A stretch of 64,000 nucleotides of DNA. Source: an uncultured Nitrospiraceae bacterium (GTDB lineage: Bacteria; UBA10199; SBBF01). The stretch lies in assembly GCA_964592255.1 (NCBI GenBank), contig CAZQCI010000001.1, forward strand, positions 15,885 to 79,884, in the 5' to 3' direction. Shown one piece after another: positions 32,363-49,152 of the stretch (the first letter of the stretch is position 1; every line of letters starts with the position of its first letter). Made by a program: the position numbers and the translations under genes. The notes below the pieces were generated by a model that did not search any database, was not told the DNA's origin, and was given only the letters and a program-made list of their open reading frames with translations.

Positions 32363-32767
32363 ATGGAAAACAAATTAGCCGTCGGCAAGGAAGTGTTATC
32401 TTATTGTGGTAAATGCAAACTACCCTTAATTCACGTCATCGTAGCCTTGAAAAACCCAACCACTATTGCCACATGCGAATGCAAAACATGCAAAGCGGTT
32501 CATCTGTATCGCGACCCTGTCACAGTGGGAGCCAAGAAAAAAACAACCAAAACTTCAACAAAAAAAGCTCCCGAAAAAGTATGGAGCCCTACCCTTTTTG
32601 AAGGAGGGATTAAACCCAAAACTTATTCCATGAGTGGCTCCTTTAAAGAAGGGGATCTCATTGCCCACCCCACTTTTGGCAAGGGCGTTGTCGAAAAGAT
32701 TCTTCCTCCTAACAAAATGGAAACCCTCTTTGAGCAGGGAATGAAAATCTTGATCTTTGCAGCGTAA
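32363..32767 (+). CDS. Hypothetical zinc-ribbon protein
   Basis: CxxC…CxCxxC cluster (YCGKCKLP…CECKTCKAV), a Lys/Thr-rich linker, and a conserved-looking C-terminal module (GDLIAHPTFGKGVV). Confidence 0.4.
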   Translation: MENKLAVGKEVLSYCGKCKLPLIHVIVALKNPTTIATCECKTCKAVHLYRDPVTVGAKKKTTKTSTKKAPEKVWSPTLFEGGIKPKTYSMSGSFKEGDLIAHPTFGKGVVEKILPPNKMETLFEQGMKILIFAA

Positions 32768-34697: not shown

Positions 34698-34739
34698 ATT
34701 GAAGAGTCAACGACTAATATAATTGCCAAAATGTAAAAT

Positions 34740-35258
34740 TTGGATTCTAATTCAGGTATGAATAAAATCATCCCTGTACTCATTATATTTTTCCACCTTC
34801 TTTTTAGTTCTATCTCTATGGCAGAGGGCCTATGCACGCCAGAAGAACACACTTATTTTTCTTGTCCCATCAAAAGTGGTAAAACCCTTTCCGTCTGCGG
34901 TCAAAAAACGGCGGACAGCCTTAGCTGGCTGCAATACCGTTTTGGAACAAAACAAAAAATAGAACTAAGCTACCCAACAGATGCAAAAAACATTAAACCG
35001 GGGGAAGTCTTTTCCTTTTCTCATTATATGCGGGGTTCTCCTTTTACTCAAAACGATAATTTAAGTTTTACCAACGGTAGCACAACCTACAATGTCACCG
35101 TAGATTTAGAAGACGCTTCCGTAACCGATGATGGAAAAGAGCTTGTCAAATATGGTGTAGAAATCACCACGACTGAAAAACCAGACAACCCTATTTTTAT
35201 CTCGTGTACCAAACCCGTCACCAATCATTTGGACGAACTACAAGGGCTAATTCCTTAA
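34740..35258 (+). CDS. Hypothetical secreted protein (172 aa) immediately upstream of the Pel-like operon
   Basis: Signal-like N-terminus …MNKIIPVLIIFFHLLFSSISMAEG-LC. The lipobox is atypical. Cys-containing mature N-terminus (CTPEEHTYFSC). Possibly starts at the internal ATG (MNKIIP). Confidence 0.4.
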   Translation: MDSNSGMNKIIPVLIIFFHLLFSSISMAEGLCTPEEHTYFSCPIKSGKTLSVCGQKTADSLSWLQYRFGTKQKIELSYPTDAKNIKPGEVFSFSHYMRGSPFTQNDNLSFTNGSTTYNVTVDLEDASVTDDGKELVKYGVEITTTEKPDNPIFISCTKPVTNHLDELQGLIP

Positions 35259-35268
35259 GGAGAGTACC

Positions 35269-35637
35269 ATGGCGGATGCTAAAACCATTCTTGTTGTAGA
35301 AGATGAATATTTTTTGGCCGAATCTATCAAAGATCGTTTGGAATACTTAGGCTACCAAGTTTTACTGGCAGAACATGGTGAAGCCGCTCTTGAATTATTA
35401 AAAGAAAAAAAATGCAATTTGATTCTCTTAGACATCATCATGCCCGTTTTAGATGGCTGGGATACCCTCAAAGCCATTCGACAAAATTCTCAACTCAAAA
35501 ACTTGCCTGTCATTATGGTTTCAGCCAGAGCTACGGATCAAGACAAAGAAAAATCTCTGGCCTACGGAGCCAATGATCACCTGAACAAACCTTTCTCTTG
35601 GGATGATATGGCAGCCCTCATTAAAAAACACCTATGA
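35269..35637 (+). CDS. Stand-alone response-regulator receiver domain (CheY-like), first gene of the Pel-like operon
   Basis: Acidic pocket VVEDE. Phospho-acceptor D in LILLDIIMP. Conserved S (MVSA) and K (NKPF). 122 aa with no output domain. GGAG RBS. ATGA overlap with the next gene. Confidence 0.8.
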   Translation: MADAKTILVVEDEYFLAESIKDRLEYLGYQVLLAEHGEAALELLKEKKCNLILLDIIMPVLDGWDTLKAIRQNSQLKNLPVIMVSARATDQDKEKSLAYGANDHLNKPFSWDDMAALIKKHL

Positions 35638-36449
35638 GACAATGGCTTCTTGTTTTATGCCTGCTTTTCCTCACATCGTGTTCTTCACGTCTGCATTGGG
35701 TTATTTATTATGGATCCACACCGCCTAGTACACCGCTCAAAAAAGTCGATTGGGCTATTTTAGAACCAGACAATCTCCAGCCTTCTTCACTTAAAAATCC
35801 GAAAATTAAAACGTTAGGTTACATCAGCTTGGGTGAAATTAATAGCTCCCGTTCTTATTGGCCCAAAATTCAAAACTCTTCTTTTATTGTAGAAGAAAAC
35901 CCCAACTGGCCTGGAGCTTACCGTGTAGATATTCGCTCGACGGACTGGCAAGACTTATTGATCCAACAAATTCTTCCTTCCATATTAAATCAAGGATTTG
36001 ATGGTTTTTTCTTAGACACAGTAGATACAGCACTGTATCTGCAAGAAAAAGATCCCGTAAAATATTCACATTCTCAAGAAGCCATGGTGAATTTTATTAA
36101 GAAAATACGTGCTTCTTTTCCCAAAGCCCTCATTGTTCCCAATAATGGTCTCGAAATGCTGCCGGAAATCGGAAAAAATATCGACGCCATATTGGTAGAA
36201 GACCTTTATACCCGTTATGACTTCAACAACAAAACTGTCATCGCCACTCCAACTGAAGTAAGTCTAACCAAGGAAAAAATGTTGGATAAATTTACACACG
36301 ATTTCCACAAGCCCGTATTGGCTTTACTCTATGAAAATTCCACTAATACCCCTCTCACAAAACATGCTATAAGTAAGTGTAAAGAAAAGGATTATAGCTG
36401 GGCTGTCACAACAGTGGATCTGATGCACTGGAACGTGCCTACCCATTAG
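35634..36449 (+). CDS. Lipoprotein TIM-barrel glycoside hydrolase of the GH114/GH166 type (PelA hydrolase-domain-like)
   Basis: Lipobox FLTSCSS. Motif GFDGFFLDTVD is typical of the GH114/TM1410-like endo-alpha-1,4-hexosaminidase fold. 271 aa. 6-nt gap to the next gene. Confidence 0.55.
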   Translation: MRQWLLVLCLLFLTSCSSRLHWVIYYGSTPPSTPLKKVDWAILEPDNLQPSSLKNPKIKTLGYISLGEINSSRSYWPKIQNSSFIVEENPNWPGAYRVDIRSTDWQDLLIQQILPSILNQGFDGFFLDTVDTALYLQEKDPVKYSHSQEAMVNFIKKIRASFPKALIVPNNGLEMLPEIGKNIDAILVEDLYTRYDFNNKTVIATPTEVSLTKEKMLDKFTHDFHKPVLALLYENSTNTPLTKHAISKCKEKDYSWAVTTVDLMHWNVPTH

Positions 36450-36455
36450 CCATTT

Positions 36456-38525
36456 TTGAAAAATTTTATTCAACAATTGATTATTGTATTTTCTCTGTTG
36501 CTCCCTGCTCTTTCGGGTTTAGCAGCCTCTCAAGAGCCTCTTTCACGGAAAGTATTAGCGCTTTATGAATCCAGCGTTTATTCAGATCCAGCCTCTACAC
36601 TCATTCATCGGACGGCAGAACTCACATTAAACTATTTGGGCCTACAAGTGGAATACCGCCCCGTGGAAAGCCCCCTTCCTTCTGATGATGACATGCAGCC
36701 TTACATAGGCTTCATCACTTGGTTTACCAATGAAAATGCCGTCCCCCATCCGGATCTTTACTGTCAATGGATGCGCCATCAGATTCAAACAGGAAAAAAA
36801 ATAGTTCTCTTAGAAAACTGGGGATTGTTTCAAGACAAAAAACGTCATCTCAGCCCCATATGTGAAGACACTTTTAAAAAATTGGGAATAGAATACAAAG
36901 GGGAATACGCCGACAACCCCTACTTTTTAGAAGTAGCGGAACAAAAAACAGAATGGGTAGAATTTGAACGAAAAATTAATTTTACCGAAAACCTCACTTA
37001 CAGTTGGTTTAAAGCCATTGATCCCCAAAGTACCGTCTACCTTAAAGTTCGTAGAACGGACATGGTGAATAGTGAATCAGACATGGTTGTCACCACCCCT
37101 CAAGGTGGCTTTGTAGCACCAACCTGGCTCATCTATAACGACACAGAAACGAATCATATTCAATGGCGTGTTAATCCTTTTTTATTTTTTGAAAAAGCGT
37201 TTGACGTACCAGACTGGCCGCGCCCCGATACAACAACTTTAAATGGAAACCGAATTTTTTATAGCCACATTGATGGTGATGGCATTTTTAATATTTCTAA
37301 AATTGATCAAAAATCATTTTCTGGAGAAGTGATCTTAAATGAAATTTTAAAGCAATACCCCTCACTCCCTATCACACTCGGCCTCATCACAGGCTACATG
37401 GACTTGAAGGAATTCAACAATCCACGCACTCAAAAGCTGTACCGCGAGATGATAGAATTGCCGCAAGTAGAAATTGCCTCGCATGGCTATGCCCATCCTT
37501 TGGTTTGGAAAACAGGAGAACTGTCTTTAAAAATTCCAGATTACAACATGAATGCCGAAAAAGAAATCAACGGATCTATTCAGCAACTCAACCAAATGAT
37601 TGAGTCTTTAGGAATCACGTATAAAAAAACCTCTCTCTTTCAATGGACAGGAGACTGCACCCCTTCCGCCATACAAATTAAAATGGCAGAACAAACGGGG
37701 TTACCTAATCTTAATGGAGGTGGTGGGCGCCAAGATGACAATTTCTATGGTTTAGCGGCCCTCTACCCCATCGGCATTACAAAAGAAGGCGCCCATCAAA
37801 TTTATGCCGGGGCTTTTAACGAAAATAATTTCACCAATCTGTGGAGCGGCCCTTATTATGGGTTTGCCCACTTACTCTCCACATTGGACAAAACCGAAAA
37901 CCCTCTACGCCTTAAAGCCGTAGATGTTTATTATCATTTTTACAGTGGGGAACGTTGGGCTTCACTAAAAGCTGTGAAAAAAATTTATGATTCCTTTTTA
38001 AACAAAAATATCTTCCCCATTCATGCCAGCCAATACGCCAGAATTGCTGAAGGATTTTACACAACTGAAATTAAGCGCATTGCCAGTGGTCATTTTGTCG
38101 TTAGTAAAAATGGAGTCTTACAAACCATTCGTTTTGACCATGAAAAAAGAAATCTAGACCTCTCTCAATCGACAGGTGTTCTAGGTTTTATTCACGATAA
38201 AAATGCCCTGTATGTTTCATTAGATGAATCGGAAAACCACGTCATTCAACTATCAGAGGCTCAGCCCTCTTCTCCTTACTTAATTCAATCTACTTTTCAG
38301 GTTTCGCAACTAACAAAAAAAGTGGAGGGCTTTTCGTTTCAAAAACAAGGATGGTTAAAAAGTCATTGCCTTTGGGGAGGGCTAAGACCCAACCACAGTT
38401 ACCGAGTCATAACACAAGATGAAACTCAACGATTAACAACTTCTTCAACAGGGGAATTGAAAATAGACTTTCAAAAAAGTGAAAATGGATTAACCCCCGT
38501 CTTAGTAAGGGTTGAAGCAGAATAA
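36456..38525 (+). CDS. Periplasmic polysaccharide deacetylase (CE4/NodB-homology) multidomain protein, equivalent to the C-terminal two-thirds of PelA
   Basis: Signal peptide MKNFIQQLIIVFSLLLPALSGLAA. CE4 motifs FYSHIDGDG (MT1-like) and EIASHGYAHP (HxxxHP, MT2). 689 aa. Overlaps the PelB-like gene. Confidence 0.6.
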   Translation: MKNFIQQLIIVFSLLLPALSGLAASQEPLSRKVLALYESSVYSDPASTLIHRTAELTLNYLGLQVEYRPVESPLPSDDDMQPYIGFITWFTNENAVPHPDLYCQWMRHQIQTGKKIVLLENWGLFQDKKRHLSPICEDTFKKLGIEYKGEYADNPYFLEVAEQKTEWVEFERKINFTENLTYSWFKAIDPQSTVYLKVRRTDMVNSESDMVVTTPQGGFVAPTWLIYNDTETNHIQWRVNPFLFFEKAFDVPDWPRPDTTTLNGNRIFYSHIDGDGIFNISKIDQKSFSGEVILNEILKQYPSLPITLGLITGYMDLKEFNNPRTQKLYREMIELPQVEIASHGYAHPLVWKTGELSLKIPDYNMNAEKEINGSIQQLNQMIESLGITYKKTSLFQWTGDCTPSAIQIKMAEQTGLPNLNGGGGRQDDNFYGLAALYPIGITKEGAHQIYAGAFNENNFTNLWSGPYYGFAHLLSTLDKTENPLRLKAVDVYYHFYSGERWASLKAVKKIYDSFLNKNIFPIHASQYARIAEGFYTTEIKRIASGHFVVSKNGVLQTIRFDHEKRNLDLSQSTGVLGFIHDKNALYVSLDESENHVIQLSEAQPSSPYLIQSTFQVSQLTKKVEGFSFQKQGWLKSHCLWGGLRPNHSYRVITQDETQRLTTSSTGELKIDFQKSENGLTPVLVRVEAE

Positions 38526-41499
38526 AATGAATTACTCACGGACTCAAATTATTATCTTCTTTATCGCCATTGTGGTTCTAGGATGGCTTTTATACCCGCG
38601 TACGCTTTTTCTTGGATTTATTTATGAAGGCTCAGCTTCATTAGAAAAATCAGAAAATTATTATCAACAGTATTTGGCTAAAAAACCTTTCAACCGCTTT
38701 GCCACATTACGTTTGGTCGATATCTACGAACGTATGGGGGAACCTGAAAAAGCCACTCCTCTCTATACCAATCTCTATTCCCATCGCCTTCACGATTGGG
38801 ATTTGGCTCAAAAATATTTAAAGCATTTAGAAAACAAAGGCGACTTTGAAGCCGCCTATAAACTAAGACAAGAAATAGCCCATAACTTTTTTGACGAAAA
38901 AAATATCCCACGAGAAAAAATTCAAGATCTGCTGACGCAAGCATTTAAATATGCTCAATGGAAACAAAAAACGGAAGAGGCTTATCAGCTCTTACAAAAA
39001 ATAGCGGATATTTCAAAAAATCCAGACGCCACTCTTCAAACCCTACATTGGCTCGATTTAGGCCTGAAACATACCGATAAAATCATCGCACGGCTCAAAA
39101 AACAATTGGCTGAAAACCCACATGATAAAAATAGTCGCCGTGAACTTATTTCTGTCCAAATGGCATCTAAAAACTTTGAAGAAGCTTACCAAACTATTGA
39201 CGAGGGATTAACGCAAGATCCGCGTGACACGACTTTACTCAAACAACGTATTCAACTTGATGCAATAACTGGAAAATCGGAAATAGAAATCAAAGATACG
39301 CTCAAAATACTCAATCTGGCGACATTATCTTCAGAGGAGACAATCTATTTCAAGCTACACTTAGTATTTTTGTATCAAAAAATAGGACGTCTGGAAGAAG
39401 CGCTCCCTCTTTTTGAAGAACTCACAAAGACCAACCCTAAAAATAAGGACATTTGGAAAAACTGGGCTTTTGTCTTAACACAGGATCAAAAAATAGATGC
39501 GGCTCTCAAGGTATTGGAAAAAAGTCGGTTTTATTTTCCTGATGATCTGGACTTAGAAGAACAACAAGTCTCTCTTCTTCTCTACCAGAAAAAAGACACC
39601 TCTTCCGTTGCTTTGTATGACGATTTTCTAAAGAAAAAACCCAAACCTTCTTTTGCCTTAGACGTGGCCTATCTTCTACTGGATCAAAAAGAAAAAAACA
39701 AAGCCCAAAACTGGTTAAACCGTGCATTAAAACTATTCCCCGAAAATGATAAACTCATCTTTTTGCTAGCGGATGTGAATGTTGAATTAGGTTTGCTTGA
39801 AGATGCTGATTTTTTGCTCACTTCTTATCTAAAAAAACACCCAAACAATTCTACAGCTCATTTAAAAACCGCTCATTTAGCAGCTATACGCTTTCAATTT
39901 GCCGCGTTAGAGCAACATTTACAGCAATACTTAAGCCTTGAAAAAAATAAGTTCCAATCTCTCATCGCAGCCGGACAAGAATATTTGTTCGCAGGCCTTA
40001 ATTCACAAGCGCAAAACTATTTCCAAAAAGCCCGTGACCAAAACCCGAAAGACCCGACTCCCTGGTTTTGGCTATCTGCAGCTTATTGGAGTCAAAACTC
40101 AAAAAAGTCCTCACAACAATCAGCCCATCAGGCAAGTCTCCTTTTCTCTAAAAAGAAAAGTAATACTACTTGGGAACGATTAAGCCTTAAAGCTCAAGCA
40201 ATGGCTCGTTTTGATGAAGACATACGCCAAAAATATAAAAAAGCCTTGGAGCGCCATCCAAAAGATTTTGATTTTTACGCTGACTTTGCGGACGTGCTTC
40301 TTATGGAACAAGAAAACACCTTGGCTGCCGAAATTATTAAAACAATCGAGCAAAAATTTTCACAAAGACCAGAGGATGTCATTTCTCTTAAAGTGCGTTT
40401 AGCTCAACAGCAACACGATTGGAAAGAAGTGATTGATTTACTTAATAATCACCCAAAACCTTATTTAAGAGACACAAAAACTTTGGCGGAAGCTTACGCC
40501 GCCAATGGGCAATGGAAAAAAGCCATGGACTATTATCAGCAATTATCCTCATCCTCCGATGAGGAAGCTCAGAAAAAACTAGGTTTAACCGAGGAAGCAG
40601 CCAAACTCCATGCCGAATATGATCATCGCATTGGTCAAAACTTTCATTATCTGGATTTAGGAAACGATACCATCATTGAAGAGGGAATTTTCACTAAACA
40701 TTACTTAAATGAATCACTCAAGATAACGGGTGAATTTGTCTGGGGGCACTATCAATCCCCCGGAATTGATTTTGAGGGAAACGCAGAATATGGTAGGATC
40801 CTTCTTTCAAAACAATGGGGGCCCCAATGGCAACTTGAAGGAGGTCTGGGGTTTGGGGTGAGTGAGCAACATGAAACAGTGTCACCTTTATTAGGAATAC
40901 GCTACAAACCTTGGGAGAAACTTTTATTGGAAATGCAAGGAAGTCTTCGGGAATTAAGAACGGATCTTCCCCAATCGGTAGCCCGGGGCGCACTAAAAAG
41001 CCAAGTGTCTTTTCAGTGGAATTGGCAAGCTACTTCCCGTTTTAATTTTTCCGGCACTTATCGTCTGGGAAAAAATAGCTTAAGCGGAGGAGAAAAAGCT
41101 TGGGAACAAAGTTTTGAACCGTCGCTTTCGTTTCTATTGCTGCGCCAACCCGATGTATTTATAGGCTACCAGTTCAGCCTGGTTCATGTAGATGACAATG
41201 ACGGTTTTTTAAGAAAACTCCCCTTGCTACCCGATGTGAGGGCGCATTATTTAACAGCTGGGTTTAATCATCCCATCACCCCAACCTTTAAGGTGGCAAG
41301 TGGCTTTTTTCTGGGTGAAGACACGGCAAGAAACCTTCATTTTTTTGAAGGCGATTTATGGGGGGCCAATGCCTCCTTTGTGTGGAACCTCACCTCATGG
41401 TTAGATATGACAGGTTTTTATAGTTACGGCAGAGAAACTCTCACTGAAAGCGCCGGTCAGAGCCATAATCTCAACTTCGGCTTTTCAGGACATTGGTAA
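38512..41499 (+). CDS. pelB: PelB-like outer-membrane export protein: N-terminal TM anchor, long TPR array, C-terminal beta-barrel porin
   Basis: TM IIIFFIAIVVLGWLLYP. About 700 aa of TPR-like helical repeats. C-terminal region of alternating amphipathic beta strands ending …NLNFGFSGHW (aromatic terminus typical of OM barrels). Alternative start ATG 38527. Confidence 0.7.
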   Translation: MKQNKMNYSRTQIIIFFIAIVVLGWLLYPRTLFLGFIYEGSASLEKSENYYQQYLAKKPFNRFATLRLVDIYERMGEPEKATPLYTNLYSHRLHDWDLAQKYLKHLENKGDFEAAYKLRQEIAHNFFDEKNIPREKIQDLLTQAFKYAQWKQKTEEAYQLLQKIADISKNPDATLQTLHWLDLGLKHTDKIIARLKKQLAENPHDKNSRRELISVQMASKNFEEAYQTIDEGLTQDPRDTTLLKQRIQLDAITGKSEIEIKDTLKILNLATLSSEETIYFKLHLVFLYQKIGRLEEALPLFEELTKTNPKNKDIWKNWAFVLTQDQKIDAALKVLEKSRFYFPDDLDLEEQQVSLLLYQKKDTSSVALYDDFLKKKPKPSFALDVAYLLLDQKEKNKAQNWLNRALKLFPENDKLIFLLADVNVELGLLEDADFLLTSYLKKHPNNSTAHLKTAHLAAIRFQFAALEQHLQQYLSLEKNKFQSLIAAGQEYLFAGLNSQAQNYFQKARDQNPKDPTPWFWLSAAYWSQNSKKSSQQSAHQASLLFSKKKSNTTWERLSLKAQAMARFDEDIRQKYKKALERHPKDFDFYADFADVLLMEQENTLAAEIIKTIEQKFSQRPEDVISLKVRLAQQQHDWKEVIDLLNNHPKPYLRDTKTLAEAYAANGQWKKAMDYYQQLSSSSDEEAQKKLGLTEEAAKLHAEYDHRIGQNFHYLDLGNDTIIEEGIFTKHYLNESLKITGEFVWGHYQSPGIDFEGNAEYGRILLSKQWGPQWQLEGGLGFGVSEQHETVSPLLGIRYKPWEKLLLEMQGSLRELRTDLPQSVARGALKSQVSFQWNWQATSRFNFSGTYRLGKNSLSGGEKAWEQSFEPSLSFLLLRQPDVFIGYQFSLVHVDDNDGFLRKLPLLPDVRAHYLTAGFNHPITPTFKVASGFFLGEDTARNLHFFEGDLWGANASFVWNLTSWLDMTGFYSYGRETLTESAGQSHNLNFGFSGHW

Positions 41500-41503
41500 A
41501 GAT

Positions 41504-41869
41504 ATGGGAAAAAAAATATTGTTAATCGACGATGAAGTAGATTTTACTGAAGTGGTGGGCACCTTGCTGCGTTTTCATGATTTCGACGTAGACACTATCA
41601 ATGAGCCTCTTCTAGCTCCTGAAGCTATTAATAAAAATAATTATGATCTCATTGTTAGCGATTTGATGATGCCCGATATCAACGGCTTTGAATTGGTCGA
41701 GAAGATTAGGACCATGCCGCGCTACAAAGACACCCCAATCATTACCTTGTCGGCAAAACTCCTTAACGATGAAGAAAGAAAACAATTGCTCCATCATGGT
41801 GTTCATTGTTTATCTAAACCATTCGAGCCCAGTGGATTGGTAGATCAAATTTGTCAATTACTTGGCTAA
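41504..41869 (+). CDS. Second stand-alone CheY-like receiver domain, between the pelB- and pelD-like genes
   Basis: LLIDDE acidic pocket. D in DLIVSDLMMP. S in ITLSAK. K in LSKPF. 121 aa, no output domain. The start lies 4 nt after the pelB stop. Confidence 0.8.
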   Translation: MGKKILLIDDEVDFTEVVGTLLRFHDFDVDTINEPLLAPEAINKNNYDLIVSDLMMPDINGFELVEKIRTMPRYKDTPIITLSAKLLNDEERKQLLHHGVHCLSKPFEPSGLVDQICQLLG

Positions 41870-41905
41870 AGACCGTCTCTTCTTTTGTCATAAAAAGACA
41901 AAAGA

Positions 41906-43294
41906 ATGAGTAGGGAGAAAATTTCGGATTTGAAACGATACTCTTATTTGTACGAAATTCCTCTTTTTTACTTGGTTTTATGTGGAATCAATTTCTACCT
42001 GGTGCCGGAATATCCTTCTTTTTTTGGCATTGATCCCCATCCTTATTGGTTAGGCATTGTATTATTTGCCTTCCGGTATGGATTAGTCCCCTCACTCATC
42101 TCAGGCGTGTTATCAGCCCTATTATTTTTATTCGGAATATTCTTATTTGGAGAACGCTATCTTTTTGAAGACGCCGTTTTCTTCCTTCTACCCTCTTTCT
42201 TCATCATTGTTTCAACTTGCCTAGGTTTCTTAACACGCCAAACACATAAAAAAATAATCCAATTCCAAGACGCCGAAATAAGCGCCAGTCAAAAGGAAAA
42301 ACATTTAAACGAAGAAATAAAAACCCTAACCGAAATTAATAATAACCTTGAAAAAAGAATAGTCACTCGTATGTCAACCTTGGTGACTTTATATGAAGGA
42401 GCCAGGAGGCTTGAAACTCACGATATCGAAGAGCTTTACAAATCAGGCTTGGACTTTATCACTAAAACATTAGGAGCCGATGAAGCAGCCATTTATCTTA
42501 AACAAAACAATGAATGGCATTTAAAAGAAAGCATTGGCTGGAAAGAGTACGAAAAGCATCCAAAAATATTAAAATGGTCCGAGGGCCTAACCGGACTTGC
42601 AGGATCTACGAATAAGATTGTCAGCATTCGTGATTTTATGGGTCACAGCCCTAAAGAACTCCCTAATATATTTAGCGACGCACTAGTAGCCGCTCCTTTA
42701 CGCTTAGGGGAGCATGGCAAAGTCATCGGTGTAATTGCCATTCAACGAATGCCTTTTTTAAGTTTCACTAGCTCTTCAGTCAACCTCTTCTCTTTTCTCA
42801 TGAACTGGATTTCACGTTCCGTAGGAGAAGCTTCGTATATTCAAGAGTTAAAAGAACAAGAAATTATCGATCCAGAACTTCAGGTATATTCTCATTCTTA
42901 TTTTTTATCTCGTGCACGGCAAGAATTCTTACGATCAAAAAACTATTATTTACCTCTTGGGCTTGGAGTTGTCTCCTTCGATCAAACCACTCCTTTATCT
43001 GCCAAAGAAAATAAACGCCTTCTCTTAGCCATAGCCCAGCTCCTTAAACAAAACATACGTGAAATGGATGTGGTTGCACGCTTTCCTTCTTCAGAACACC
43101 CTTTTTCTATTCTCTTCATCACAGCTAGCCCTAAACAAACCGAAGAGATGACTGAAAAAATAACGCATGCTTACCAGGAATTAAAATTAGTCGATGCTAA
43201 AGGTAAGCCCCTGCCTCTTATTAAAATTAAATTGTCTCATTTTTCCCCACAAGTGGCCGATATCGATCAAATGCTTCGAGAGGCTCTCATATGA
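41906..43294 (+). CDS. pelD: PelD-like inner-membrane c-di-GMP receptor (4 TM + GAF + degenerate GGDEF)
   Basis: Four N-terminal TM helices. GAF-like region (LGADEAAIYLKQNNEWHL…VIGVIAIQRMPF). C-terminal degenerate cyclase-like domain. An RxxD (REMD) lies five residues upstream of where a degenerate GG(D/E)EF would sit (ARFPS…). ATGA overlap with the next gene. Confidence 0.6.
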   Translation: MSREKISDLKRYSYLYEIPLFYLVLCGINFYLVPEYPSFFGIDPHPYWLGIVLFAFRYGLVPSLISGVLSALLFLFGIFLFGERYLFEDAVFFLLPSFFIIVSTCLGFLTRQTHKKIIQFQDAEISASQKEKHLNEEIKTLTEINNNLEKRIVTRMSTLVTLYEGARRLETHDIEELYKSGLDFITKTLGADEAAIYLKQNNEWHLKESIGWKEYEKHPKILKWSEGLTGLAGSTNKIVSIRDFMGHSPKELPNIFSDALVAAPLRLGEHGKVIGVIAIQRMPFLSFTSSSVNLFSFLMNWISRSVGEASYIQELKEQEIIDPELQVYSHSYFLSRARQEFLRSKNYYLPLGLGVVSFDQTTPLSAKENKRLLLAIAQLLKQNIREMDVVARFPSSEHPFSILFITASPKQTEEMTEKITHAYQELKLVDAKGKPLPLIKIKLSHFSPQVADIDQMLREALI

Positions 43295-44328
43295 TGCATG
43301 CACGATTCATGTTTTTTTGGGGTTTAAGTGGTCTCTGTGAGTTTCCGTTTCTCCAAACTCTATTAGGTTTTCCTTATTTTTTTAAAGGGCACACTCCCTT
43401 TGTGGTCTTACTGCATGTGACGGGATCCGTATTGCTCTTTTTTTGTGTCCCCAAAGGAGAAGGCTGGTTTCATCCGGCACGCATGGGCGCAAAAACCTTT
43501 TTCTACATGGGGCTTTTTTTGCCGTTTGTAGGATGGATCATTTCCGGAATCTTATACATTCATTTCATCAAAGAAAAAGACAAACCCTATACTATAAACC
43601 AGGAAGATGATGATAATTTTTTCATGGACTCATTTCCTTCTTTATCCCTTTCTATTCAGCTTCCACGGCGAAATCGTCTTCAAAAACAATTGGATTTTAT
43701 TCCTTTAGTAGACATCATCCGAGGACCGGAAGAGATAGAGCTTAAACGTGGAGCTATCGAAAAACTTGCTCAAATTAATACCCCAGAAACAATCGACCTA
43801 CTTTTCTCTCTACGTAGCGATCCAGTCATGGAAGTGCGTTTCTATGCTACGTCTGCTTTGGGAAAAATCAAAAAAGAATTTGATGAACGTCTTGATGCTG
43901 CCAAAGAAGAAATAAAAAAAACAAGCCCCAGCAGTAAGGCACGACTCAACTTAGCTCAGGCTTACTTAGAATATGCCCAATCTCATCTTTTGGATAAAGT
44001 AACAACTTCCGCCTACGAAACAGAAGCTCTGTTTCACTTGCAGGAAGAGCTCAACAACCCCTTCCCTTCCCTACAAGCCTTTTGGATGCTCATTGATTTA
44101 TACAAAAATCATCGTCGATGGGAGCAAGCATTAGATTTACTAGAAAAATTGGAGCACCACCCGGAAACAGAAATTATTTTAGTTTTAAAAAGTAAAATTG
44201 AAATTATTTATTTGATGCAACGCTATCAAGAAATACCGGTTTTATTAGAAAAACTGACTCAAAAAAATAAATTACCAGACGAATGGACCGCTCTAGCACA
44301 ATGGTGGGGGGCCCATGTTGAACATTAA
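43291..44328 (+). CDS. pelE: PelE-like inner-membrane protein (N-terminal TM helices plus HEAT/TPR-like helical repeats)
   Basis: Hydrophobic N-terminal 100 aa. Helical repeats follow (PETIDLLFSLRSDPVMEVRFYATSALGKI; LNLAQAYLEYAQSH). Position between pelD and pelF. 345 aa. Confidence 0.5.
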   Translation: MMHARFMFFWGLSGLCEFPFLQTLLGFPYFFKGHTPFVVLLHVTGSVLLFFCVPKGEGWFHPARMGAKTFFYMGLFLPFVGWIISGILYIHFIKEKDKPYTINQEDDDNFFMDSFPSLSLSIQLPRRNRLQKQLDFIPLVDIIRGPEEIELKRGAIEKLAQINTPETIDLLFSLRSDPVMEVRFYATSALGKIKKEFDERLDAAKEEIKKTSPSSKARLNLAQAYLEYAQSHLLDKVTTSAYETEALFHLQEELNNPFPSLQAFWMLIDLYKNHRRWEQALDLLEKLEHHPETEIILVLKSKIEIIYLMQRYQEIPVLLEKLTQKNKLPDEWTALAQWWGAHVEH

Positions 44329-46279
44329 AAAAATTAAAGAACTCATTCATGGACCCAGTGAAGACGGTCGATTTGAAGCCTTTTTAGAGCTCTTTGAATC
44401 GGAAGATCCCAAAGCTTTGGAGGAAATACATCATATACTCACATCTCCCGACCCAGTGATTAAAATTAAATTCTTGCGCTTCTTATCACACGCAGAATCA
44501 GAAAAATCTTTGCCATTAATTGTTACATGCTTAAAAGATAAAAATCCCATCGTCATCAACGTGGCTCGAAAGGTTTTTGAAAAAAATACTTTTCCTTTAA
44601 AGTTTCGAAGCCTTCTTCCATTTCTCAACGCCCCTCACGATGATTTATTTACTTATGCGGTAAAAGCGTTAGCTCAGGCGGGTATCACCGAAATTATTGA
44701 ACCTTTATTTGAACAGCTAAAAAGAGTGGGGGAAGAAAGGCAGCTGATTATTTTATCGGTTTTACGTTGGCTTCCCGAAGAAAGAATGATTCCTGTTCTC
44801 CTGTCTTATCTTAAATCAAAAAATGACAATATCCGCTATAAAACTTTAATGGTCTTTGGAAGTCTATTGAGTGCAGGCCATAGTTCGGCACGCAAACATC
44901 TACTTCCCTCTCTCAAGGATAACAATGCCTCAATTCGGCAAGCTGTTTTATGGTGTTTAAAAAGAGCCCCTTCAAAAAAAGATTATTCAATTTTTTTAAA
45001 TTACTCACAAAAAGATCCAGATCCTTTAGTCAGACAAGAAGCTCTAATAGGGCTGAGTACTTTTCCCCCACGAAAAATTATTTTGCCTATTCTTTCTCTC
45101 ATGGCGACTGAAAAATCACGCATGGTTTTATTGAAAGGAGAAGGACTTCTTTTGGGAATAAACATTCAAGATCTGGAATCCGAGTTAAGTAAAGCGCTTC
45201 AATCCAAAAATACCAAAATTAGAGAAAGAGCCCAACTGTTAATGTCGGAATTAGGACGCAATTCGGAAAGTTTTTGTAAAAAATTACTCGAAAAAGCCAT
45301 GCGGATCAAATCACCTAAAGAAAGACTCACTTTAATTGAAGCACTAGGCAATACACAAAGTCACAATGCCATTGCCTGGCTGGAAACCCTGCTCAACACA
45401 GATCCCTTAACATCCTATGCAGCTATTTCGGCCTTGTTAAAAATTTGGGGCGAAAACCCACAACAACCCATTCTTAAATATTTACAACATCAAAAATCAG
45501 CCATTACCCGCCAAAACGTACTCAAGCATCTGGTTAAAAAAAATATCCCTTTGAAAAGCAATACTGATTTAGAAAAATATCTGATGGGTCTTTTAGAAGA
45601 CGCCAATTTAAATATTCGATATCTAGCAACTCAAGCCTTGCTCAAGATCAACAGCTCAATGCTGCTACACCCCTTAATGAAAACATTACTTAACGAGTCT
45701 GACCCCACAACTTTTCAACTTTTGCGACAAAGTATTTTATCTTTACTAGCAAAAAACCCCCAATTAATCGGTCCAATGTTAAAATTGTATTATCAAGACA
45801 GTAAGGCTCTTCATACTTTAATCAACCTGATGAGTGAAATCGACTTGGAAGGATCTCATTCTTTAGAACTATTAATCATTCTCTTATCCCCACCTTTCAT
45901 GCTGGATAACTCGCCTTTGCTTCAAGAAGCGGTCCGTTTCATCCTCATCCAATATCTTCAAGATAAAATTCGCTTAGAAGATGTGGTTGAAAGCGTATCT
46001 ACTATTCCACAACGGGATTTGATTTTTGATTGTTTATATACTCAACTAGAAAATCAATCTAGCTCTATGCGCCCTATTTTTTCTAAATCTAAAATTGAAA
46101 CCTGGCTTCATAACGACTGCCTGCTCTCCCCTTCCTTATTACGGCTACTCGCTTTAAGTCAGGATGAAAAATTAATCGCTGTATTAGTTCAATTCACATC
46201 ACAAAAACCTTTAGCACCATACAAAGCAGAATTGATCCATACTCTTAATCGGATGATTTGGCAGGAGGCCTGCTCATGA
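44315..46279 (+). CDS. Large HEAT-repeat (PBS-lyase-type HEAT-like) protein embedded in the Pel-like operon
   Basis: 654 aa. More than 10 repeats of about 30 aa with the pattern D/NPxVRxxAxxALxxIG (e.g. DPVIKIKFLRFLS, NASIRQAVLWCLKRAP, DPLVRQEALIGLS, NLNIRYLATQALLKI). No TM or signal. Overlaps both neighbours (14 and 22 nt). Confidence 0.6.
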   Translation: MLNIKKIKELIHGPSEDGRFEAFLELFESEDPKALEEIHHILTSPDPVIKIKFLRFLSHAESEKSLPLIVTCLKDKNPIVINVARKVFEKNTFPLKFRSLLPFLNAPHDDLFTYAVKALAQAGITEIIEPLFEQLKRVGEERQLIILSVLRWLPEERMIPVLLSYLKSKNDNIRYKTLMVFGSLLSAGHSSARKHLLPSLKDNNASIRQAVLWCLKRAPSKKDYSIFLNYSQKDPDPLVRQEALIGLSTFPPRKIILPILSLMATEKSRMVLLKGEGLLLGINIQDLESELSKALQSKNTKIRERAQLLMSELGRNSESFCKKLLEKAMRIKSPKERLTLIEALGNTQSHNAIAWLETLLNTDPLTSYAAISALLKIWGENPQQPILKYLQHQKSAITRQNVLKHLVKKNIPLKSNTDLEKYLMGLLEDANLNIRYLATQALLKINSSMLLHPLMKTLLNESDPTTFQLLRQSILSLLAKNPQLIGPMLKLYYQDSKALHTLINLMSEIDLEGSHSLELLIILLSPPFMLDNSPLLQEAVRFILIQYLQDKIRLEDVVESVSTIPQRDLIFDCLYTQLENQSSSMRPIFSKSKIETWLHNDCLLSPSLLRLLALSQDEKLIAVLVQFTSQKPLAPYKAELIHTLNRMIWQEACS

Positions 46280-47736
46280 TCGACGTATGCCTCCTCTTAG
46301 AAGGAACCTATCCTTATGTCGCTGGAGGAGTATCCACGTGGGTTCATCAACTTATTTCTTCCATCAAAGATTTACGCTTTGGTATTTTATTCATTGCACC
46401 TTATTCAGACCCTACACGCACTCTAAAATATGAAGTACCCAACCATGTGCTCTATCTGAAAGAAATTTATTTACACGACTACAACTTAGAATTACGACCC
46501 AAAAGAAAACCAACCTCACAAGACTATGAACTGATTAAAAAATTTTATGAAAATGTTCAAAAAGAGGATTTCAAGTTATTTGCTAACTTTGTTCGCCTCT
46601 TCCAAGGAGAAAACTCATGTTTCGGCATCCAAAATCTTTTTAATTCGGAGCAAACCTGGGATTTGCTTACTTATTTTTACGAACGATATGCGGGTGATAT
46701 TTCTTTCATTGATTATTTTTGGACTTGGCGAGGTACCCATTTACCCTTGATGCAAATGCTCACTGCAGAAATTCCACGAGCTAAAATTTACCATGCCGTC
46801 TCAACCGGTTATGCAGGTCTTATTGGAGCCATTGCTAAACAATTCAATCAAGGAAAGTTTTTTTTAACAGAACACGGGCTCTATACTCACGAGCGCATGC
46901 TAGAAATCTCACAAGCCTCTTGGATTTATGAACAGAAAAAAAGAGATTTCAAAGCCGAAAAAGGATTTTCTTTTTTTAAGCAATGGTGGATTACCATTTT
47001 TGATACTCTCAGTCGTTTAGCCTACGATTCAGCCGACAATATTTATACTCTATTTGAAGGCAACAAAAGACGGCAAATTTTACAAGGCGCACAAGCCGAT
47101 AAAATCACAGTCATCCCTAACGGCATTGATGTTATCGCCTTTGAAAAAATTGAGCGGAGTAAAAAAACACACCCACAAATAGGTCTTATTGGACGAGTTG
47201 TCACAATTAAAGATATCAAAACATATATTCAAGCAGCCCGTATTGTTCTTCAAAAGTTACCGACAGCCTCTTTTTACATCATTGGCCCTACGGATGAAGA
47301 GCAAGAATATTTTGAAGAATGTAAAATGATGGTGGAAGCCCTGCACATGGAAAATAATATTATCTTCACGGGGCGAGTAGACCCAAAAACCTATTATGCG
47401 TTTCTGGACTTAGTAGTCCTTACCAGTATTTCAGAAGCCCAACCTTATGTCATTTTAGAAGCCAATGCCGTAGGCATACCGGTAGTAGCCAGCGATGTGG
47501 GGGCTTGCCGAGAAATGCTGGAAGGAAGCAGTTCTTTGGATCGGACCTTAGGAGTGAGTGGTAAAATCACAGAAGTATCCAACCCTGACGATACAGCTAA
47601 AGCCATTGTAGAGATTATGACCAACGAAACCCTGTATCGGCATATGAGCCAAACGGGAAAACAAAGAGTGAAACAATATTATGACGATCGTGATTTGATC
47701 AGCAAATACATAAATATTTACGAAAAAAACTTATAA
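46258..47736 (+). CDS. pelF: PelF-like cytoplasmic GT4 glycosyltransferase with an N-terminal DUF3492-type domain
   Basis: N-terminus MIDVCLLLEGTYPYVAGGVSTWVHQLI matches the PelF/DUF3492 start. C-terminal GT4 region (EAQPYVILEANAVGIPVVASDVGACREML). Confidence 0.8.
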   Translation: MAGGLLMIDVCLLLEGTYPYVAGGVSTWVHQLISSIKDLRFGILFIAPYSDPTRTLKYEVPNHVLYLKEIYLHDYNLELRPKRKPTSQDYELIKKFYENVQKEDFKLFANFVRLFQGENSCFGIQNLFNSEQTWDLLTYFYERYAGDISFIDYFWTWRGTHLPLMQMLTAEIPRAKIYHAVSTGYAGLIGAIAKQFNQGKFFLTEHGLYTHERMLEISQASWIYEQKKRDFKAEKGFSFFKQWWITIFDTLSRLAYDSADNIYTLFEGNKRRQILQGAQADKITVIPNGIDVIAFEKIERSKKTHPQIGLIGRVVTIKDIKTYIQAARIVLQKLPTASFYIIGPTDEEQEYFEECKMMVEALHMENNIIFTGRVDPKTYYAFLDLVVLTSISEAQPYVILEANAVGIPVVASDVGACREMLEGSSSLDRTLGVSGKITEVSNPDDTAKAIVEIMTNETLYRHMSQTGKQRVKQYYDDRDLISKYINIYEKNL

Positions 47737-47745
47737 CTTATTCTT

Positions 47746-49152
47746 ATGGCTGGCATTGGCTTCAGATTACAAAAACTTCTTGCGGGTGAGTCCTACACTG
47801 ACTTGATACGGGCTTACTTATACTCTTCTGTTATCACTTCAGGACCTATGATCATCGTCATGATCACTTTAATGCTGACTAACTCTCTCATTAGTCATAA
47901 CCTAGATTTAGAAGCAGCTAAAAATATACTCCCACTCATCATTTACGTTTATGCTTTTTCCATGGTTGGCGTAGGGCCTTTTGTCTATGTCGTCACCAGA
48001 AATATTGCAGATAAATATTATTTGAAAGAAATAGAATCTTTCACTCCCATTTACTTTGCAACATTGGAAATTGTATTTATATCTCAAACTTTACTCGCCT
48101 TGCCTTTTCTTGTCTTTTCTTCTTTTGATTTCACCACTAAATGGGTCGTACTTTGTCTCTATCTTCTAGTAAGCGGAATTTGGGTAGCCATGCTTTTTCT
48201 TTCTGCCGCCAGAAGTTACTTGTGGATTGTAGGAGGCTTTATTTTTGGAGGCCTAGCCGGGCTAGCCTTTTCCTGGTTTTTAAGTCGGATAGAGGGGCCT
48301 CTTGGTTTTATTAAGGGCTATACGCTAGGCCAAGGAGTCACTTTTTTAATTTTATGCCTGCGTATTTTTAAAGAGTTCGGTTATCGCTTTAACCATGATT
48401 ATGGTTTTCTACTTTATTTCAAACGTTACAATTCTTTGGCCTGGGTTGGTTTTTTTTATTATGCCGGTATCTGGGTCGATAAATTTATATTTTGGTTTTT
48501 TGGACCCGAAAGCAACATGGTTCATGGTTTAAAAATTTATAATAATTATGACACCCCTCTTTTCTTATCATTCATCAGTGTCATTCCTTCCATGGCTTTT
48601 TTTCTCATTCAAATGGAAACCAACTTTGTACGGCATTACCATTCTTACTACAAAGCCATACGCGAGCGTGGTTCCCTGCTTCTCATCAGAGAAAAAAAGA
48701 AAAAAATCATCGAAACTCTCAGCCAGCATTTTCAAAAATTTGCCATTCTACAGGGGCTTTTTACAGCCGTAATCATCCTATTTATTGTTCCATTATCTGA
48801 AGCCCTTGGGCTTAACCCTTATCAAGTAGGCATTCTACGGATCAGCCTGTTAGGATCTTACTTACTCATGGGTTATGTGATGGTACTTAATATTTTATTT
48901 TATTTTGAACTACAAAAAGAAGCGTTTTGGATTTCTGCCATTTTCTTTTTCGGAAATGCCCTCTTTACTTTTGCCACTTTAAAAATTGGATTTGCCTCTT
49001 ACGGTTTTGGATATACTTTAGCCTCTTTTGTAAGTGTCATGGTAGGCTTTATCGTATTAAATCGTCGGTTAGAAAAACTGAACTGCTTAACCTTTATGAA
49101 TCAACCTATTTTAGTCCCTCAGTTTAAATTAGAAAATGAAGAGCAAAACTAA
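47746..49152 (+). CDS. pelG: PelG-like polysaccharide exporter (MATE/MOP-like, 12 TM)
   Basis: N-terminus MAGIGFRLQKLLAGESYTDLIRAYLYSSVITSGPMI resembles the conserved PelG start. 468 aa, polytopic. Confidence 0.7.
   Translation: MAGIGFRLQKLLAGESYTDLIRAYLYSSVITSGPMIIVMITLMLTNSLISHNLDLEAAKNILPLIIYVYAFSMVGVGPFVYVVTRNIADKYYLKEIESFTPIYFATLEIVFISQTLLALPFLVFSSFDFTTKWVVLCLYLLVSGIWVAMLFLSAARSYLWIVGGFIFGGLAGLAFSWFLSRIEGPLGFIKGYTLGQGVTFLILCLRIFKEFGYRFNHDYGFLLYFKRYNSLAWVGFFYYAGIWVDKFIFWFFGPESNMVHGLKIYNNYDTPLFLSFISVIPSMAFFLIQMETNFVRHYHSYYKAIRERGSLLLIREKKKKIIETLSQHFQKFAILQGLFTAVIILFIVPLSEALGLNPYQVGILRISLLGSYLLMGYVMVLNILFYFELQKEAFWISAIFFFGNALFTFATLKIGFASYGFGYTLASFVSVMVGFIVLNRRLEKLNCLTFMNQPILVPQFKLENEEQN

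What the first reader, a model, noticed from the sequence alone, without database searches (positions are those of the whole stretch)
41504..41869. Second stand-alone receiver domain inserted between the pelB-like and pelD-like genes
A second CheY-like receiver (D in VSDLMMP, S in TLSAK, K in SKPF), distinct in sequence from the first. It sits exactly where canonical operons carry pelC. Two single-domain RRs in one EPS operon suggest a phosphate sink/shuttle arrangement, or RR-PelD cross-talk with c-di-GMP sensing.
Basis: partly seen in the sequence, partly recalled or inferred. Interest (0 to 1): 0.6.

Follow-up and report, generated by a model that had tools for sequence, protein, structure and literature searches.

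The report
Response-regulator gene built into Pel operon
A small phosphorylation-switch protein (a CheY-like receiver) is a fixed, strongly conserved gene between pelB and pelD in one lineage of Pel biofilm-polysaccharide operons from uncultured bacteria, which suggests that two-component signalling acts directly on the Pel synthesis machinery alongside c-di-GMP.

Summary
Window 41504-41869 (+) encodes a 121-aa stand-alone receiver domain. It scores Pfam Response_reg E 1.8e-20, has D9/D10/D53/S83/K105 intact, and gives an AF2 model of pLDDT 94. It is only 27% identical to the upstream receiver RR1 (35269-35637).

It lies 4 nt after pelB and 36 nt before a PelD-like gene (TM, GAF, degenerate GGDEF, RxxD kept).

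In 13 other lineages (45-63% identity), every family member with readable context sits between pelB and pelD. A clade-specific 650-aa HEAT-repeat gene lies between pelE and pelF wherever that stretch is covered. More distant pel loci have neither gene.

RR2 is about as conserved as the glycosyltransferase PelF (59-63% against 57-66% in most lineages) and more conserved than PelD, PelB or RR1. RR1 and the neighbouring histidine kinases come and go between lineages, so a two-receiver sink is not the core design.

RR2 does not replace PelC. It is cytoplasmic, and most related pel loci lack pelC anyway.

Best reading (inferred, not shown): phospho-RR2 binds the cytoplasmic Pel complex (PelD and/or the HEAT protein) and gates synthesis, as EpsW~P does with EpsZ in Myxococcus. 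This is a new variant of a known kind, of moderate interest.

The parts
41504..41869 (+). RR2: 121-aa stand-alone CheY-like receiver, the subject of the finding
   Evidence: Pfam Response_reg E 1.8e-20. D9, D10, D53 and K105 are invariant and S/T83 is kept in 16 orthologues. AF2 pLDDT 94. The same slot is occupied in 13 other lineages.
38512..41499 (+). PelB-like TPR protein with a beta-rich C-terminal part; its stop is 4 nt before the RR2 start
   Evidence: Multiple TPR families. The orthologue in L129 carries PF24604 B-barrel_PelB_C.
41906..43294 (+). PelD-like c-di-GMP receptor: 4 TM helices, long coiled coil, GAF, degenerate GGDEF with RxxD (R385, D388)
   Evidence: GAF and GGDEF hits. The RxxD aligns to the I-site of DgcR, and the GGEEF motif is lost. 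In the 32-sequence alignment D388 is invariant and R385 is conserved in at least 90%. AF2 pLDDT 88.9. P. aeruginosa PelD crystal structures are among the top Foldseek hits, E about 1e-11. JGI names some homologues PelD.
41873..41915 (+). RNA hairpin in the RR2-pelD spacer that pairs the pelD start codon
   Evidence: -17.5 kcal/mol, z -4.06, 0 of 200 shuffles fold as well. Not conserved in L127, L130 or L011.
35269..35637 (+). RR1: first stand-alone receiver, directly upstream of pelA
   Evidence: Pfam E 1.2e-28. Orthologues occur in L002, L005 and L011-L014, with D12, D55 and K107 invariant. Absent in L129 and L130.
35634..36449 (+). PelA N-terminal part as a separate ORF (GH114 hydrolase)
   Evidence: Pfam Glyco_hydro_114 E 1.6e-21.
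36456..38525 (+). PelA C-terminal part as a separate ORF (putative deacetylase region)
   Evidence: Only a weak Glyco_hydro_57 hit. It is conserved 41-50% in all relatives at this position. The assignment rests on position and on homology to PelA-like ORFs of other pel loci.
43291..44328 (+). PelE-like membrane protein with HEAT/TPR repeats
   Evidence: HEAT_2 E 4.4e-8 and a weak TPR_14 hit. Weak homology to the gene after pelD in distant pel loci.
44315..46279 (+). 654-aa HEAT-repeat protein, clade-specific and co-occurring with RR2
   Evidence: HEAT_2 E 1.8e-36. Present wherever this region is covered in RR2-type loci and in none of L016-L046.
46258..47736 (+). PelF glycosyltransferase
   Evidence: DUF3492 E 3.3e-82 and Glycos_transf_1.
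47746..49152 (+). PelG
   Evidence: Pfam PelG E 1.2e-120.

Best explanation
RR2 is a functional, phosphorylatable single-domain response regulator that has become a fixed component of one lineage of Pel loci: (RR1)-pelA(split)-pelB-RR2-pelD-pelE-HEAT-pelF-pelG. It has no output domain, so it must act through protein contacts. The most likely mechanism has three steps. First, a histidine kinase phosphorylates D53. In many relatives this kinase is encoded just upstream of the locus; in this genome it lies outside the 64-kb window. Second, phospho-RR2 uses its conserved alpha4-beta5-alpha5 face to bind the cytoplasmic side of the PelD-PelE-PelF-PelG complex. The best candidate partners are PelD, whose gene is translationally coupled to RR2, and the co-occurring HEAT-repeat scaffold. 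Third, Pel polymerisation then needs, or is tuned by, a two-component signal in addition to c-di-GMP bound at the intact PelD I-site. Shown here: gene identity, intact active site, fold, invariant synteny, strong purifying selection and clade-specific surface conservation. Inferred: phosphorylation, the identity of the partner, and the sign of the effect.
For: The receiver is intact and confidently folded.

In 14 of 14 lineages with readable context, the RR2-family gene lies between pelB and pelD. This includes two members found by sequence alone (P0063/L127, P0141/L128) and three found through the most diverged PelDs (L129-L131).

RR2 is among the best-conserved genes of the locus, with one outlier lineage (L015) lower for every gene:
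- RR2 59-63%
- PelF 57-66%
- PelD 42-53%
- RR1 35-51%
- PelB 29-39%
- HEAT 28-39%

RR2 stop and pelD start are -4 to +6 nt apart in most relatives, and about 40 nt apart in L127 and L130. In the window, a hairpin pairs the pelD AUG just downstream of the RR2 stop, which would couple pelD translation to RR2 translation.

Positions conserved in the family but not in 78 generic receivers cluster on two faces. One is alpha1, the kinase-docking face (F14, T15, T20, F24, H25). The other is alpha4-beta5-alpha5, the usual output face (D89, E91, K93, H101, E108, P109, V113).

RR2 and the HEAT gene appear together and only in this clade.

Kinases of the type REC-(PAS)-HisKA-HATPase sit next to the locus in L002, L005, L012, L013, L014, L129 and L131.

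There is a precedent. EpsW~P, a single-domain regulator encoded in an EPS locus, activates the initiating enzyme EpsZ post-translationally, with evidence for direct contact (PMC12802240).

PelD, PelE, PelF and PelG are proposed to form an inner-membrane synthase complex (review PMC8892547).
Against: There is no direct evidence of any RR2 contact. None of 69 PelD clusters of this clade is fused to a receiver domain, so the Rosetta-stone test is negative. The residue at the aromatic switch position (K-3, C102 here) varies between C, F, L, V, Y, I and M. No kinase is present in the 64-kb window or within 10 kb in L130. The conserved alpha4-beta5-alpha5 face could serve homodimerisation rather than target binding. 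Conservation and synteny would also fit a role inside a phosphorelay.
Confidence: 0.5

Rival explanations
1. Phosphate sink or shuttle. RR2 has no target of its own. It competes with RR1 or other receivers for the same kinase, or relays phosphate, and so sets the phosphorylation level of the true output regulator.
For: Several relatives encode 2-4 stand-alone receivers plus one or two kinases that themselves carry receiver domains, directly upstream of pelA. RR2 keeps a conserved alpha1 kinase-docking helix.
Against: RR2 is invariant, while RR1 is absent upstream of pelA in L129 and L130 and the kinases vary in number, type and place. A sink does not need a family-specific conserved alpha4-beta5-alpha5 face, nor tight coupling to pelD. 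RR2 is more conserved than RR1.
Confidence: 0.2
2. Indirect control through c-di-GMP. Phospho-RR2 activates or inhibits a diguanylate cyclase or phosphodiesterase encoded elsewhere, and PelD merely reads the resulting c-di-GMP level.
For: PelD keeps its RxxD I-site. The kinase of L014 shows a weak C-terminal GGDEF match. L131 has an HDOD-HD protein near the locus.
Against: No cyclase or phosphodiesterase is conserved in or next to the locus. RR2 has no conserved RxxD or C-terminal extension for c-di-GMP binding. This reading does not explain the fixed position next to pelD or the co-occurrence with the HEAT gene.
Confidence: 0.12
3. Co-expressed regulator of a different process. RR2 is made together with Pel but targets something else, such as motility or another matrix component, so that the other process switches when Pel is made.
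For: Single-domain receivers often act on motors or other machines. L131 has CheD and another receiver downstream of pelG.
Against: Every family member with visible context is inside a pel locus, and no other conserved neighbour exists outside the pel genes.
Confidence: 0.1
4. Functional replacement of PelC. The gene in the pelC slot takes over the role of PelC in export.
For: Only its position between pelB and pelD, and the absence of a detectable pelC in the window and in all RR2-type loci.
Against: RR2 has no signal peptide or lipobox and folds as a cytoplasmic receiver. PelC is a periplasmic lipoprotein of the GNA1162-like type. pelC is also missing from most distant pel loci that have no RR2.
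Confidence: 0.01

Closest known systems
EpsW of Myxococcus xanthus (single-domain response regulator activating the phosphoglycosyl transferase EpsZ; PMC12802240, PMC4671073)
   Same: Both are stand-alone receivers encoded inside an exopolysaccharide locus. EpsW acts post-translationally on the biosynthetic machine when phosphorylated, and its kinase is encoded elsewhere. This is the mechanism I infer for RR2.
   Different: EpsW works in a Wzx/Wzy pathway on a monotopic phosphoglycosyl transferase, whereas this locus is synthase-dependent (Pel) and has no such enzyme. RR2 is not an EpsW family member: its best NCBIfam score is 62 bits, and even RR1 reaches only 74 bits against the EpsW cutoff of 200.
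Canonical pelABCDEFG of Pseudomonas aeruginosa, with PelD as c-di-GMP receptor (PMC2170427; PMC8892547)
   Same: PelF, PelG, PelD (TM-GAF-degenerate GGDEF with RxxD), PelB, GH114-type PelA and a PelE-like gene are present in the same order.
   Different: There is no pelC. PelA is split into two ORFs. Three cytoplasmic genes have been added: RR1, RR2 and the HEAT protein. PelD is barely recognisable by sequence (E 0.6-0.8 to 4EUV). In P. aeruginosa, two-component input reaches Pel only indirectly, for example through WspR-made c-di-GMP (own knowledge).
BcsE of E. coli-type cellulose secretion (degenerate REC fused to degenerate GGDEF; PMC8892547)
   Same: A receiver-fold module is associated with a degenerate-GGDEF c-di-GMP sensor of a synthase-dependent EPS system.
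   Different: In BcsE the receiver is degenerate, fused, and binds c-di-GMP through its own RxxD. RR2 is a separate protein with a complete phospho-acceptor pocket and no conserved RxxD.
RR468 of Thermotoga maritima (PDB 3DGE)
   Same: It is the closest solved structure and sequence: a 122-aa stand-alone receiver with about 32% identity and TM 0.89.
   Different: Its genomic context is unrelated, being paired with HK853. It says nothing about the output.
Phosphate-sink CheY-like proteins such as DifD of M. xanthus or CheY1 of Sinorhizobium (own knowledge)
   Same: They are stand-alone receivers in systems with several receivers per kinase, some of which control EPS.
   Different: The sink role is defined by function. 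Here the second receiver and the kinase are not constant partners of RR2.

Membership tests
CheY-like receiver domain (Pfam PF00072) | Profile score above the curated cutoff over the whole domain | tested here: met
   73.6 bits against 30.2, residues 5-116 of 121.
CheY-like receiver domain (Pfam PF00072) | Acidic pocket, phospho-acceptor Asp, Ser/Thr and Lys | tested here: met
   D9, D10, D53, S83 and K105 are present. D9, D10, D53 and K105 are invariant and S/T83 is kept in 16 orthologues.
CheY-like receiver domain (Pfam PF00072) | (beta-alpha)5 fold | tested here: met
   AF2 pLDDT 94.1 with five strands and five helices. TM 0.89 to RR468.
CheY-like receiver domain (Pfam PF00072) | Is actually phosphorylated on the conserved Asp | not testable with these tools
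   Needs phosphotransfer or acetyl-phosphate assays.
Stand-alone (single-domain) response regulator | No output domain on the same polypeptide | tested here: met
   The ORF is 121 aa and ends 5 residues after the receiver domain. All orthologues are 121-141 aa.
EpsW family (NCBIfam NF041866) | Score at or above the equivalog cutoff (200 bits) | tested here: not met
   EpsW is not among the best 25 hits of RR2, whose top score is 62 bits. RR1 reaches 74.3 bits.
EpsW family (NCBIfam NF041866) | Partner is a large monotopic phosphoglycosyl transferase of a Wzx/Wzy pathway | tested here: not met
   The locus is of Pel type (PelF GT4, PelG) and has no phosphoglycosyl transferase.
PelC | Lipoprotein signal peptide and GNA1162-like/PelC fold | tested here: not met
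   RR2 starts MGKKILLIDDE and folds as a receiver. A PelC profile built from L018, L021 and L026 (validated against PDB 9H80 and 5T11) finds nothing in the window or in RR2-type loci.
Pel biosynthetic locus | PelF (DUF3492 plus GT4) and PelG | tested here: met
   E 3.3e-82 and E 1.2e-120.
Pel biosynthetic locus | PelD: TM segment, GAF, degenerate GGDEF with I-site RxxD | tested here: met
   P. aeruginosa PelD structures are among the top fold matches.
Pel biosynthetic locus | PelB: TPR region plus C-terminal outer-membrane barrel | tested here: inconclusive
   The TPR region is clear in the window. The barrel domain PF24604 is on record only for the L129 orthologue and did not score in the window protein.
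Pel biosynthetic locus | PelA: GH114 hydrolase plus deacetylase | tested here: inconclusive
   GH114 is clear. The second ORF has only a weak GH57 hit here and a faint DUF2194 hit in orthologues.
Pel biosynthetic locus | PelC present | tested here: not met
c-di-GMP-binding receiver proteins (Cle type, or BcsE REC*) | Conserved RxxD, or an Arg-rich C-terminal extension | tested here: not met
   R23xxD26 and R73xxD76 of the window protein are not conserved in the family. There is no C-terminal extension.
Phosphate-sink receiver | Constant co-occurrence with a second receiver served by the same kinase | tested here: not met
   L129 and L130 have RR2 but no RR1 upstream of pelA. L130 has no kinase within 10 kb. 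The sink activity itself cannot be tested here.

The most novel reading that the evidence does not exclude
Phospho-RR2 is a true subunit or allosteric co-activator of the Pel synthase complex. It would dock on PelD or on the clade-specific HEAT scaffold, so that polymerisation needs both a two-component phosphorylation signal and c-di-GMP. That would be the first synthase-dependent exopolysaccharide machine with a phospho-receiver as a built-in control element.
Probability: 0.35. Interest if true: 0.65.

Novelty: new variant of a known kind. Interest (0 to 1): 0.45.

Why it matters
Post-translational control of synthase-dependent exopolysaccharides (cellulose, alginate, PNAG, Pel) is described as c-di-GMP control (review PMC8892547). 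A receiver protein that is fixed inside a pel operon, coupled to the c-di-GMP receptor gene and as conserved as the glycosyltransferase points to a second, direct input from two-component signalling.

It would extend to synthase-dependent systems the principle just shown for EpsW-EpsZ in a Wzx/Wzy pathway (PMC12802240). It also gives a compact and testable system: three clade-specific cytoplasmic genes added to a known machine. The pel-operon surveys I could read do not mention it (PMC7112194 read directly; PMC7112168 and PMC7890745 show no term occurrences in the search tables).

The limits are clear. The hosts are uncultured, mostly 'Deltaproteobacteria'-labelled groundwater MAGs. The mechanism is inferred only. 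Receivers near EPS loci are not rare in themselves.

Tried and rejected
- An exact look-up of the RR2 protein found no record, although an identical cluster representative exists (P0001).
- Rfam found nothing in the whole window, so there is no c-di-GMP riboswitch.
- The accepted run was dominated by multi-receiver proteins. Only four single-domain representatives carried the RR2 signature. Two of those sat on contigs of about 1 kb without DNA.
- A search for a histidine kinase in the window, by tblastn with kinases from relatives and by motif scan, found none.
- The 172-aa secreted ORF upstream of RR1 (34740-35258) was tested as a possible displaced PelC. It has no Pfam, NCBIfam or PDB similarity and no homologue in any related locus.
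- The Rosetta-stone test for REC-PelD fusions was negative.
- The hairpin before pelD was checked in relatives with long spacers and is not conserved.
- P0233, the weakest PelD hit, is a GAF-GGDEF protein next to secA and is not in a pel locus.
- The promoter and terminator scan gave no excess over shuffles and no signal separating RR2 from its neighbours.
- Complex modelling of RR2 with PelD or the HEAT protein was not possible with the single-chain predictor.

Full report
**1. The observation**

Window 41504-41869 (+) is an ATG-initiated ORF of 121 codons. Pfam assigns the whole protein (residues 5-116) to Response_reg at E 1.8e-20, 73.6 bits against a cutoff of 30.2. The acidic pair D9-D10 is also present.

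AlphaFold2 with 11 homologues gives a confident (beta-alpha)5 model, pLDDT 94.1 and pTM 0.88. Its best PDB neighbour is the stand-alone regulator RR468 of Thermotoga maritima, TM 0.89 and 32% identity. The upstream receiver RR1 (35269-35637) is only 27% identical.

**2. The surroundings**

All genes here are on the + strand, with overlaps or gaps of a few bases:

| Coordinates | Gene |
|---|---|
| 35269-35637 | RR1 |
| 35634-36449 | GH114 hydrolase, the N-terminal half of PelA as its own ORF |
| 36456-38525 | 689-aa ORF in the place of the PelA deacetylase half |
| 38512-41499 | 995-aa TPR protein (PelB-like) |
| 41504-41869 | RR2 |
| 41906-43294 | TM-GAF-degenerate-GGDEF protein (PelD-like) |
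| 43291-44328 | PelE-like membrane protein |
| 44315-46279 | 654-aa HEAT-repeat protein |
| 46258-47736 | PelF (DUF3492 plus GT4, E 3e-82) |
| 47746-49152 | PelG (E 1e-120) |

The PelD-like protein has almost no sequence similarity to P. aeruginosa PelD (E 0.6-0.8). It does have the defining architecture. Its GGDEF-like domain aligns to DgcR with the I-site RxxD kept (R385-E-M-D388) and the GGEEF motif lost. In 32 homologues D388 is invariant and R385 is nearly so. The AF2 model (pLDDT 88.9) shows four TM helices, a long coiled coil, GAF and GGDEF. P. aeruginosa PelD crystal structures are among the top fold matches. JGI names some homologues PelD.

The window is chromosomal, with cox genes and mreBCD-pbp2-rodA, and has 41% GC. 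It has no Rfam match.

**3. Is RR2 a passenger or a part?**

Homologues of RR2 at 56-63% identity exist in metagenomes. Their contigs all show PelB-RR2-PelD-PelE-HEAT-PelF-PelG.

A genome scan with a PelD profile returned 36 loci. I annotated them with the window proteins:
- The five closest (L011-L015, PelD at least 37% identical) have the RR2 orthologue between pelB and pelD and the HEAT gene between pelE and pelF.
- None of the 31 more distant loci (PelD at most 29% identical, mostly Rickettsiales- or Alphaproteobacteria-labelled MAGs) has either gene.

Two more family members found purely by sequence in 1.84 billion representatives (P0063, P0141) lie in the same context. So do the RR2-family genes (48-54% identity) next to the three most diverged PelDs of the clade (L129-L131). 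That makes 14 of 14 lineages.

The PelD clade is larger, with at least 69 clusters at 90% identity. Several are labelled 'Deltaproteobacteria bacterium' MAGs.

Gene-by-gene identity to the window puts RR2 next to the glycosyltransferase. One outlier lineage (L015) is lower for every gene:

| Gene | Identity to window |
|---|---|
| RR2 | 59-63% |
| PelF | 57-66% |
| PelG | 49-56% |
| PelD | 42-53% |
| PelA-C | 41-50% |
| RR1 | 35-51% |
| PelE | 34-43% |
| PelB | 29-39% |
| HEAT | 28-39% |

In 16 orthologues D9, D10, E11, D13, D53-L-M-M-P57, G61, F62, P78, A84, K85, E91, R92, K105 and P106 are invariant, and position 83 is S or T.

RR2 is therefore a functional gene under strong constraint and a fixed component of this Pel-locus type. 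It is neither a recent duplicate nor a decaying copy.

**4. What varies**

RR1 orthologues sit directly before pelA in the window, L002, L005 and L011-L014, with active-site residues kept. L129 and L130 have no receiver upstream of pelA. In L131 the upstream receivers and kinase are separated from pelA by two unrelated genes.

Kinases of the type REC-(PAS)-HisKA-HATPase lie just upstream in L002/3, L005/6, L012, L013, L014 and L131, and just downstream on the other strand in L129. None is found in the 64-kb window or within 10 kb in L130.

So a two-component input is a recurrent neighbour. RR2 alone is constant.

**5. The pelC question**

Three distant loci (L018, L021, L026) carry a lipoprotein directly before pelD. 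It matches solved PelC structures (PDB 9H80, 5T11; E down to 1.6e-13) and the GNA1162-like family. So the slot is indeed the pelC slot.

A profile of these three finds no PelC in the window, in any RR2-type locus, or in the other 30 loci of the genome scan. In many of the distant loci a PelB of about 1,500 aa abuts pelD directly. RR2 has no signal peptide and is a cytoplasmic fold.

The position is therefore a coincidence of operon geometry, not a functional substitution. The caveat is that a three-sequence profile may miss very divergent PelC proteins, and only 10 kb on each side was examined.

**6. How it most likely works**

With no output domain, RR2 must act by contact. Compared with 78 generic receivers, positions conserved only in the RR2 family fall on two faces:
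- alpha1 (F14, T15, T20, F24, H25), the helix that docks on kinases;
- alpha4-beta5-alpha5 (D89, E91, K93, L96, H101, E108, P109, V113), the face that receivers normally use for output or dimerisation.

The background set shares the DLMMP and DDExDF motifs by construction, so these calls are conservative.

RR2 and pelD are -4 to +6 nt apart in most relatives and about 40 nt apart in L127 and L130. In the window the 36-nt spacer forms a stable hairpin (-17.5 kcal/mol, z -4.1). It pairs the pelD AUG and begins about 4 nt after the RR2 stop, so a ribosome terminating on RR2 would open it. This hairpin is not conserved elsewhere.

RR2 also co-occurs strictly with a cytoplasmic HEAT-repeat protein, a typical interaction scaffold.

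PelD, PelE, PelF and PelG are proposed to form the inner-membrane synthase complex, and the mechanism of c-di-GMP activation through PelD is still open (PMC8892547).

A close functional precedent now exists. In Myxococcus xanthus the phosphorylated single-domain regulator EpsW activates the initiating enzyme EpsZ post-translationally, with evidence for direct contact, probably by stabilising its dimer (PMC12802240).

I therefore rate as most likely (0.5) that RR2~P binds the cytoplasmic Pel complex, through PelD and/or the HEAT protein, and gates or tunes polymerisation together with c-di-GMP.

Rivals:
- a phosphate sink or shuttle (0.2), weakened because RR1 and the kinases are not constant partners and because the output face is conserved;
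- indirect action through a cyclase or phosphodiesterase elsewhere (0.12);
- a co-expressed regulator of another process (0.1);
- PelC replacement (refuted).

Against the favoured model:
- No contact has been shown.
- No REC-PelD fusion exists among 69 PelD clusters.
- The aromatic switch position is variable.
- The conserved alpha4-beta5-alpha5 face could be a homodimer interface.

**7. Comparison with what is known, and novelty**

RR2 is a member of the receiver superfamily and of the class of single-domain regulators; all testable features are met. It is not an EpsW family member by score or by pathway type. It is not PelC, and it is not a c-di-GMP-binding receiver of the Cle or BcsE type, since it has no conserved RxxD and no extension.

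The locus is a Pel locus by PelF, PelG and PelD. It differs from pelABCDEFG in four ways: pelC is lost, pelA is split, and the two receivers and the HEAT gene have been added.

The pel-operon survey I read directly (PMC7112194) does not mention a receiver gene inside pel operons. The search tables show no occurrences of the terms in PMC7112168 or PMC7890745. That library is incomplete, so this is absence of evidence.

I class it as a new variant of a known kind, with moderate interest (0.45). The synteny and conservation evidence is unusually clean, and the idea is directly testable. However, the mechanism is inferred, the hosts are uncultured, and receivers near EPS genes are common.

Noticed in passing
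window 44315-46279 (+): A 654-aa cytoplasmic HEAT-repeat protein lies between pelE and pelF. It is absent from canonical pel operons. It is present in every RR2-type locus that covers this region and in none of the 31 more distant pel loci. It is poorly conserved (28-39%), unlike RR2.
   Followed up: partly
window 41873-41915 (+): A stable RNA hairpin (-17.5 kcal/mol, z -4.06) lies in the RR2-pelD spacer and pairs the pelD start codon. It could make pelD translation depend on translation of RR2. It is not conserved in relatives with long spacers (L127, L130).
   Followed up: partly
window 35634-36449 and 36456-38525 (+): PelA is split into a GH114 ORF and a separate 689-aa ORF that has no clear deacetylase-family match. 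In L011 a single ORF of about 960 aa covers the region, and L005 lacks the GH114 part.
   Followed up: partly
window 1-64000; L001-L046: No pelC is detectable in the window, in any RR2-type locus, or in 30 of the 33 other loci found with the PelD profile. Yet PelB-like proteins with TPR and beta-rich C-termini are present. Export without PelC seems to be the rule in this branch of Pel systems.
   Followed up: yes
window 32844-35258 (+): Where relatives carry a REC-PAS-HisKA-HATPase kinase and extra receivers upstream of RR1, this genome has other genes. One is a choice-of-anchor I family lipoprotein (32844-34697). The other is a 172-aa secreted ORF (34740-35258) with no family, no PDB match and no homologue in related loci. 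No histidine kinase was found in the 64-kb window by tblastn with relatives' kinases or by motif scan.
   Followed up: partly
L131 1921-3867 and 15996-17499: This relative's pel locus is interrupted by an AAA_14/DUF4143 ATPase, a PIN-domain gene and an oppositely oriented acid-phosphatase-like gene between pelF and pelG. It is followed by CheD, an HDOD-HD protein and another receiver.
   Followed up: no
L014 2607-4196: The kinase upstream of this relative's pel locus (REC-HisKA-HATPase) has a weak C-terminal GGDEF match (E 4.9e-4). This may be a kinase-cyclase hybrid next to a c-di-GMP-sensing Pel locus.
   Followed up: no
window 32363-32767 (+): A 134-aa ORF with paired CxxC motifs and a lysine-rich linker has no NCBIfam match.
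   Followed up: no
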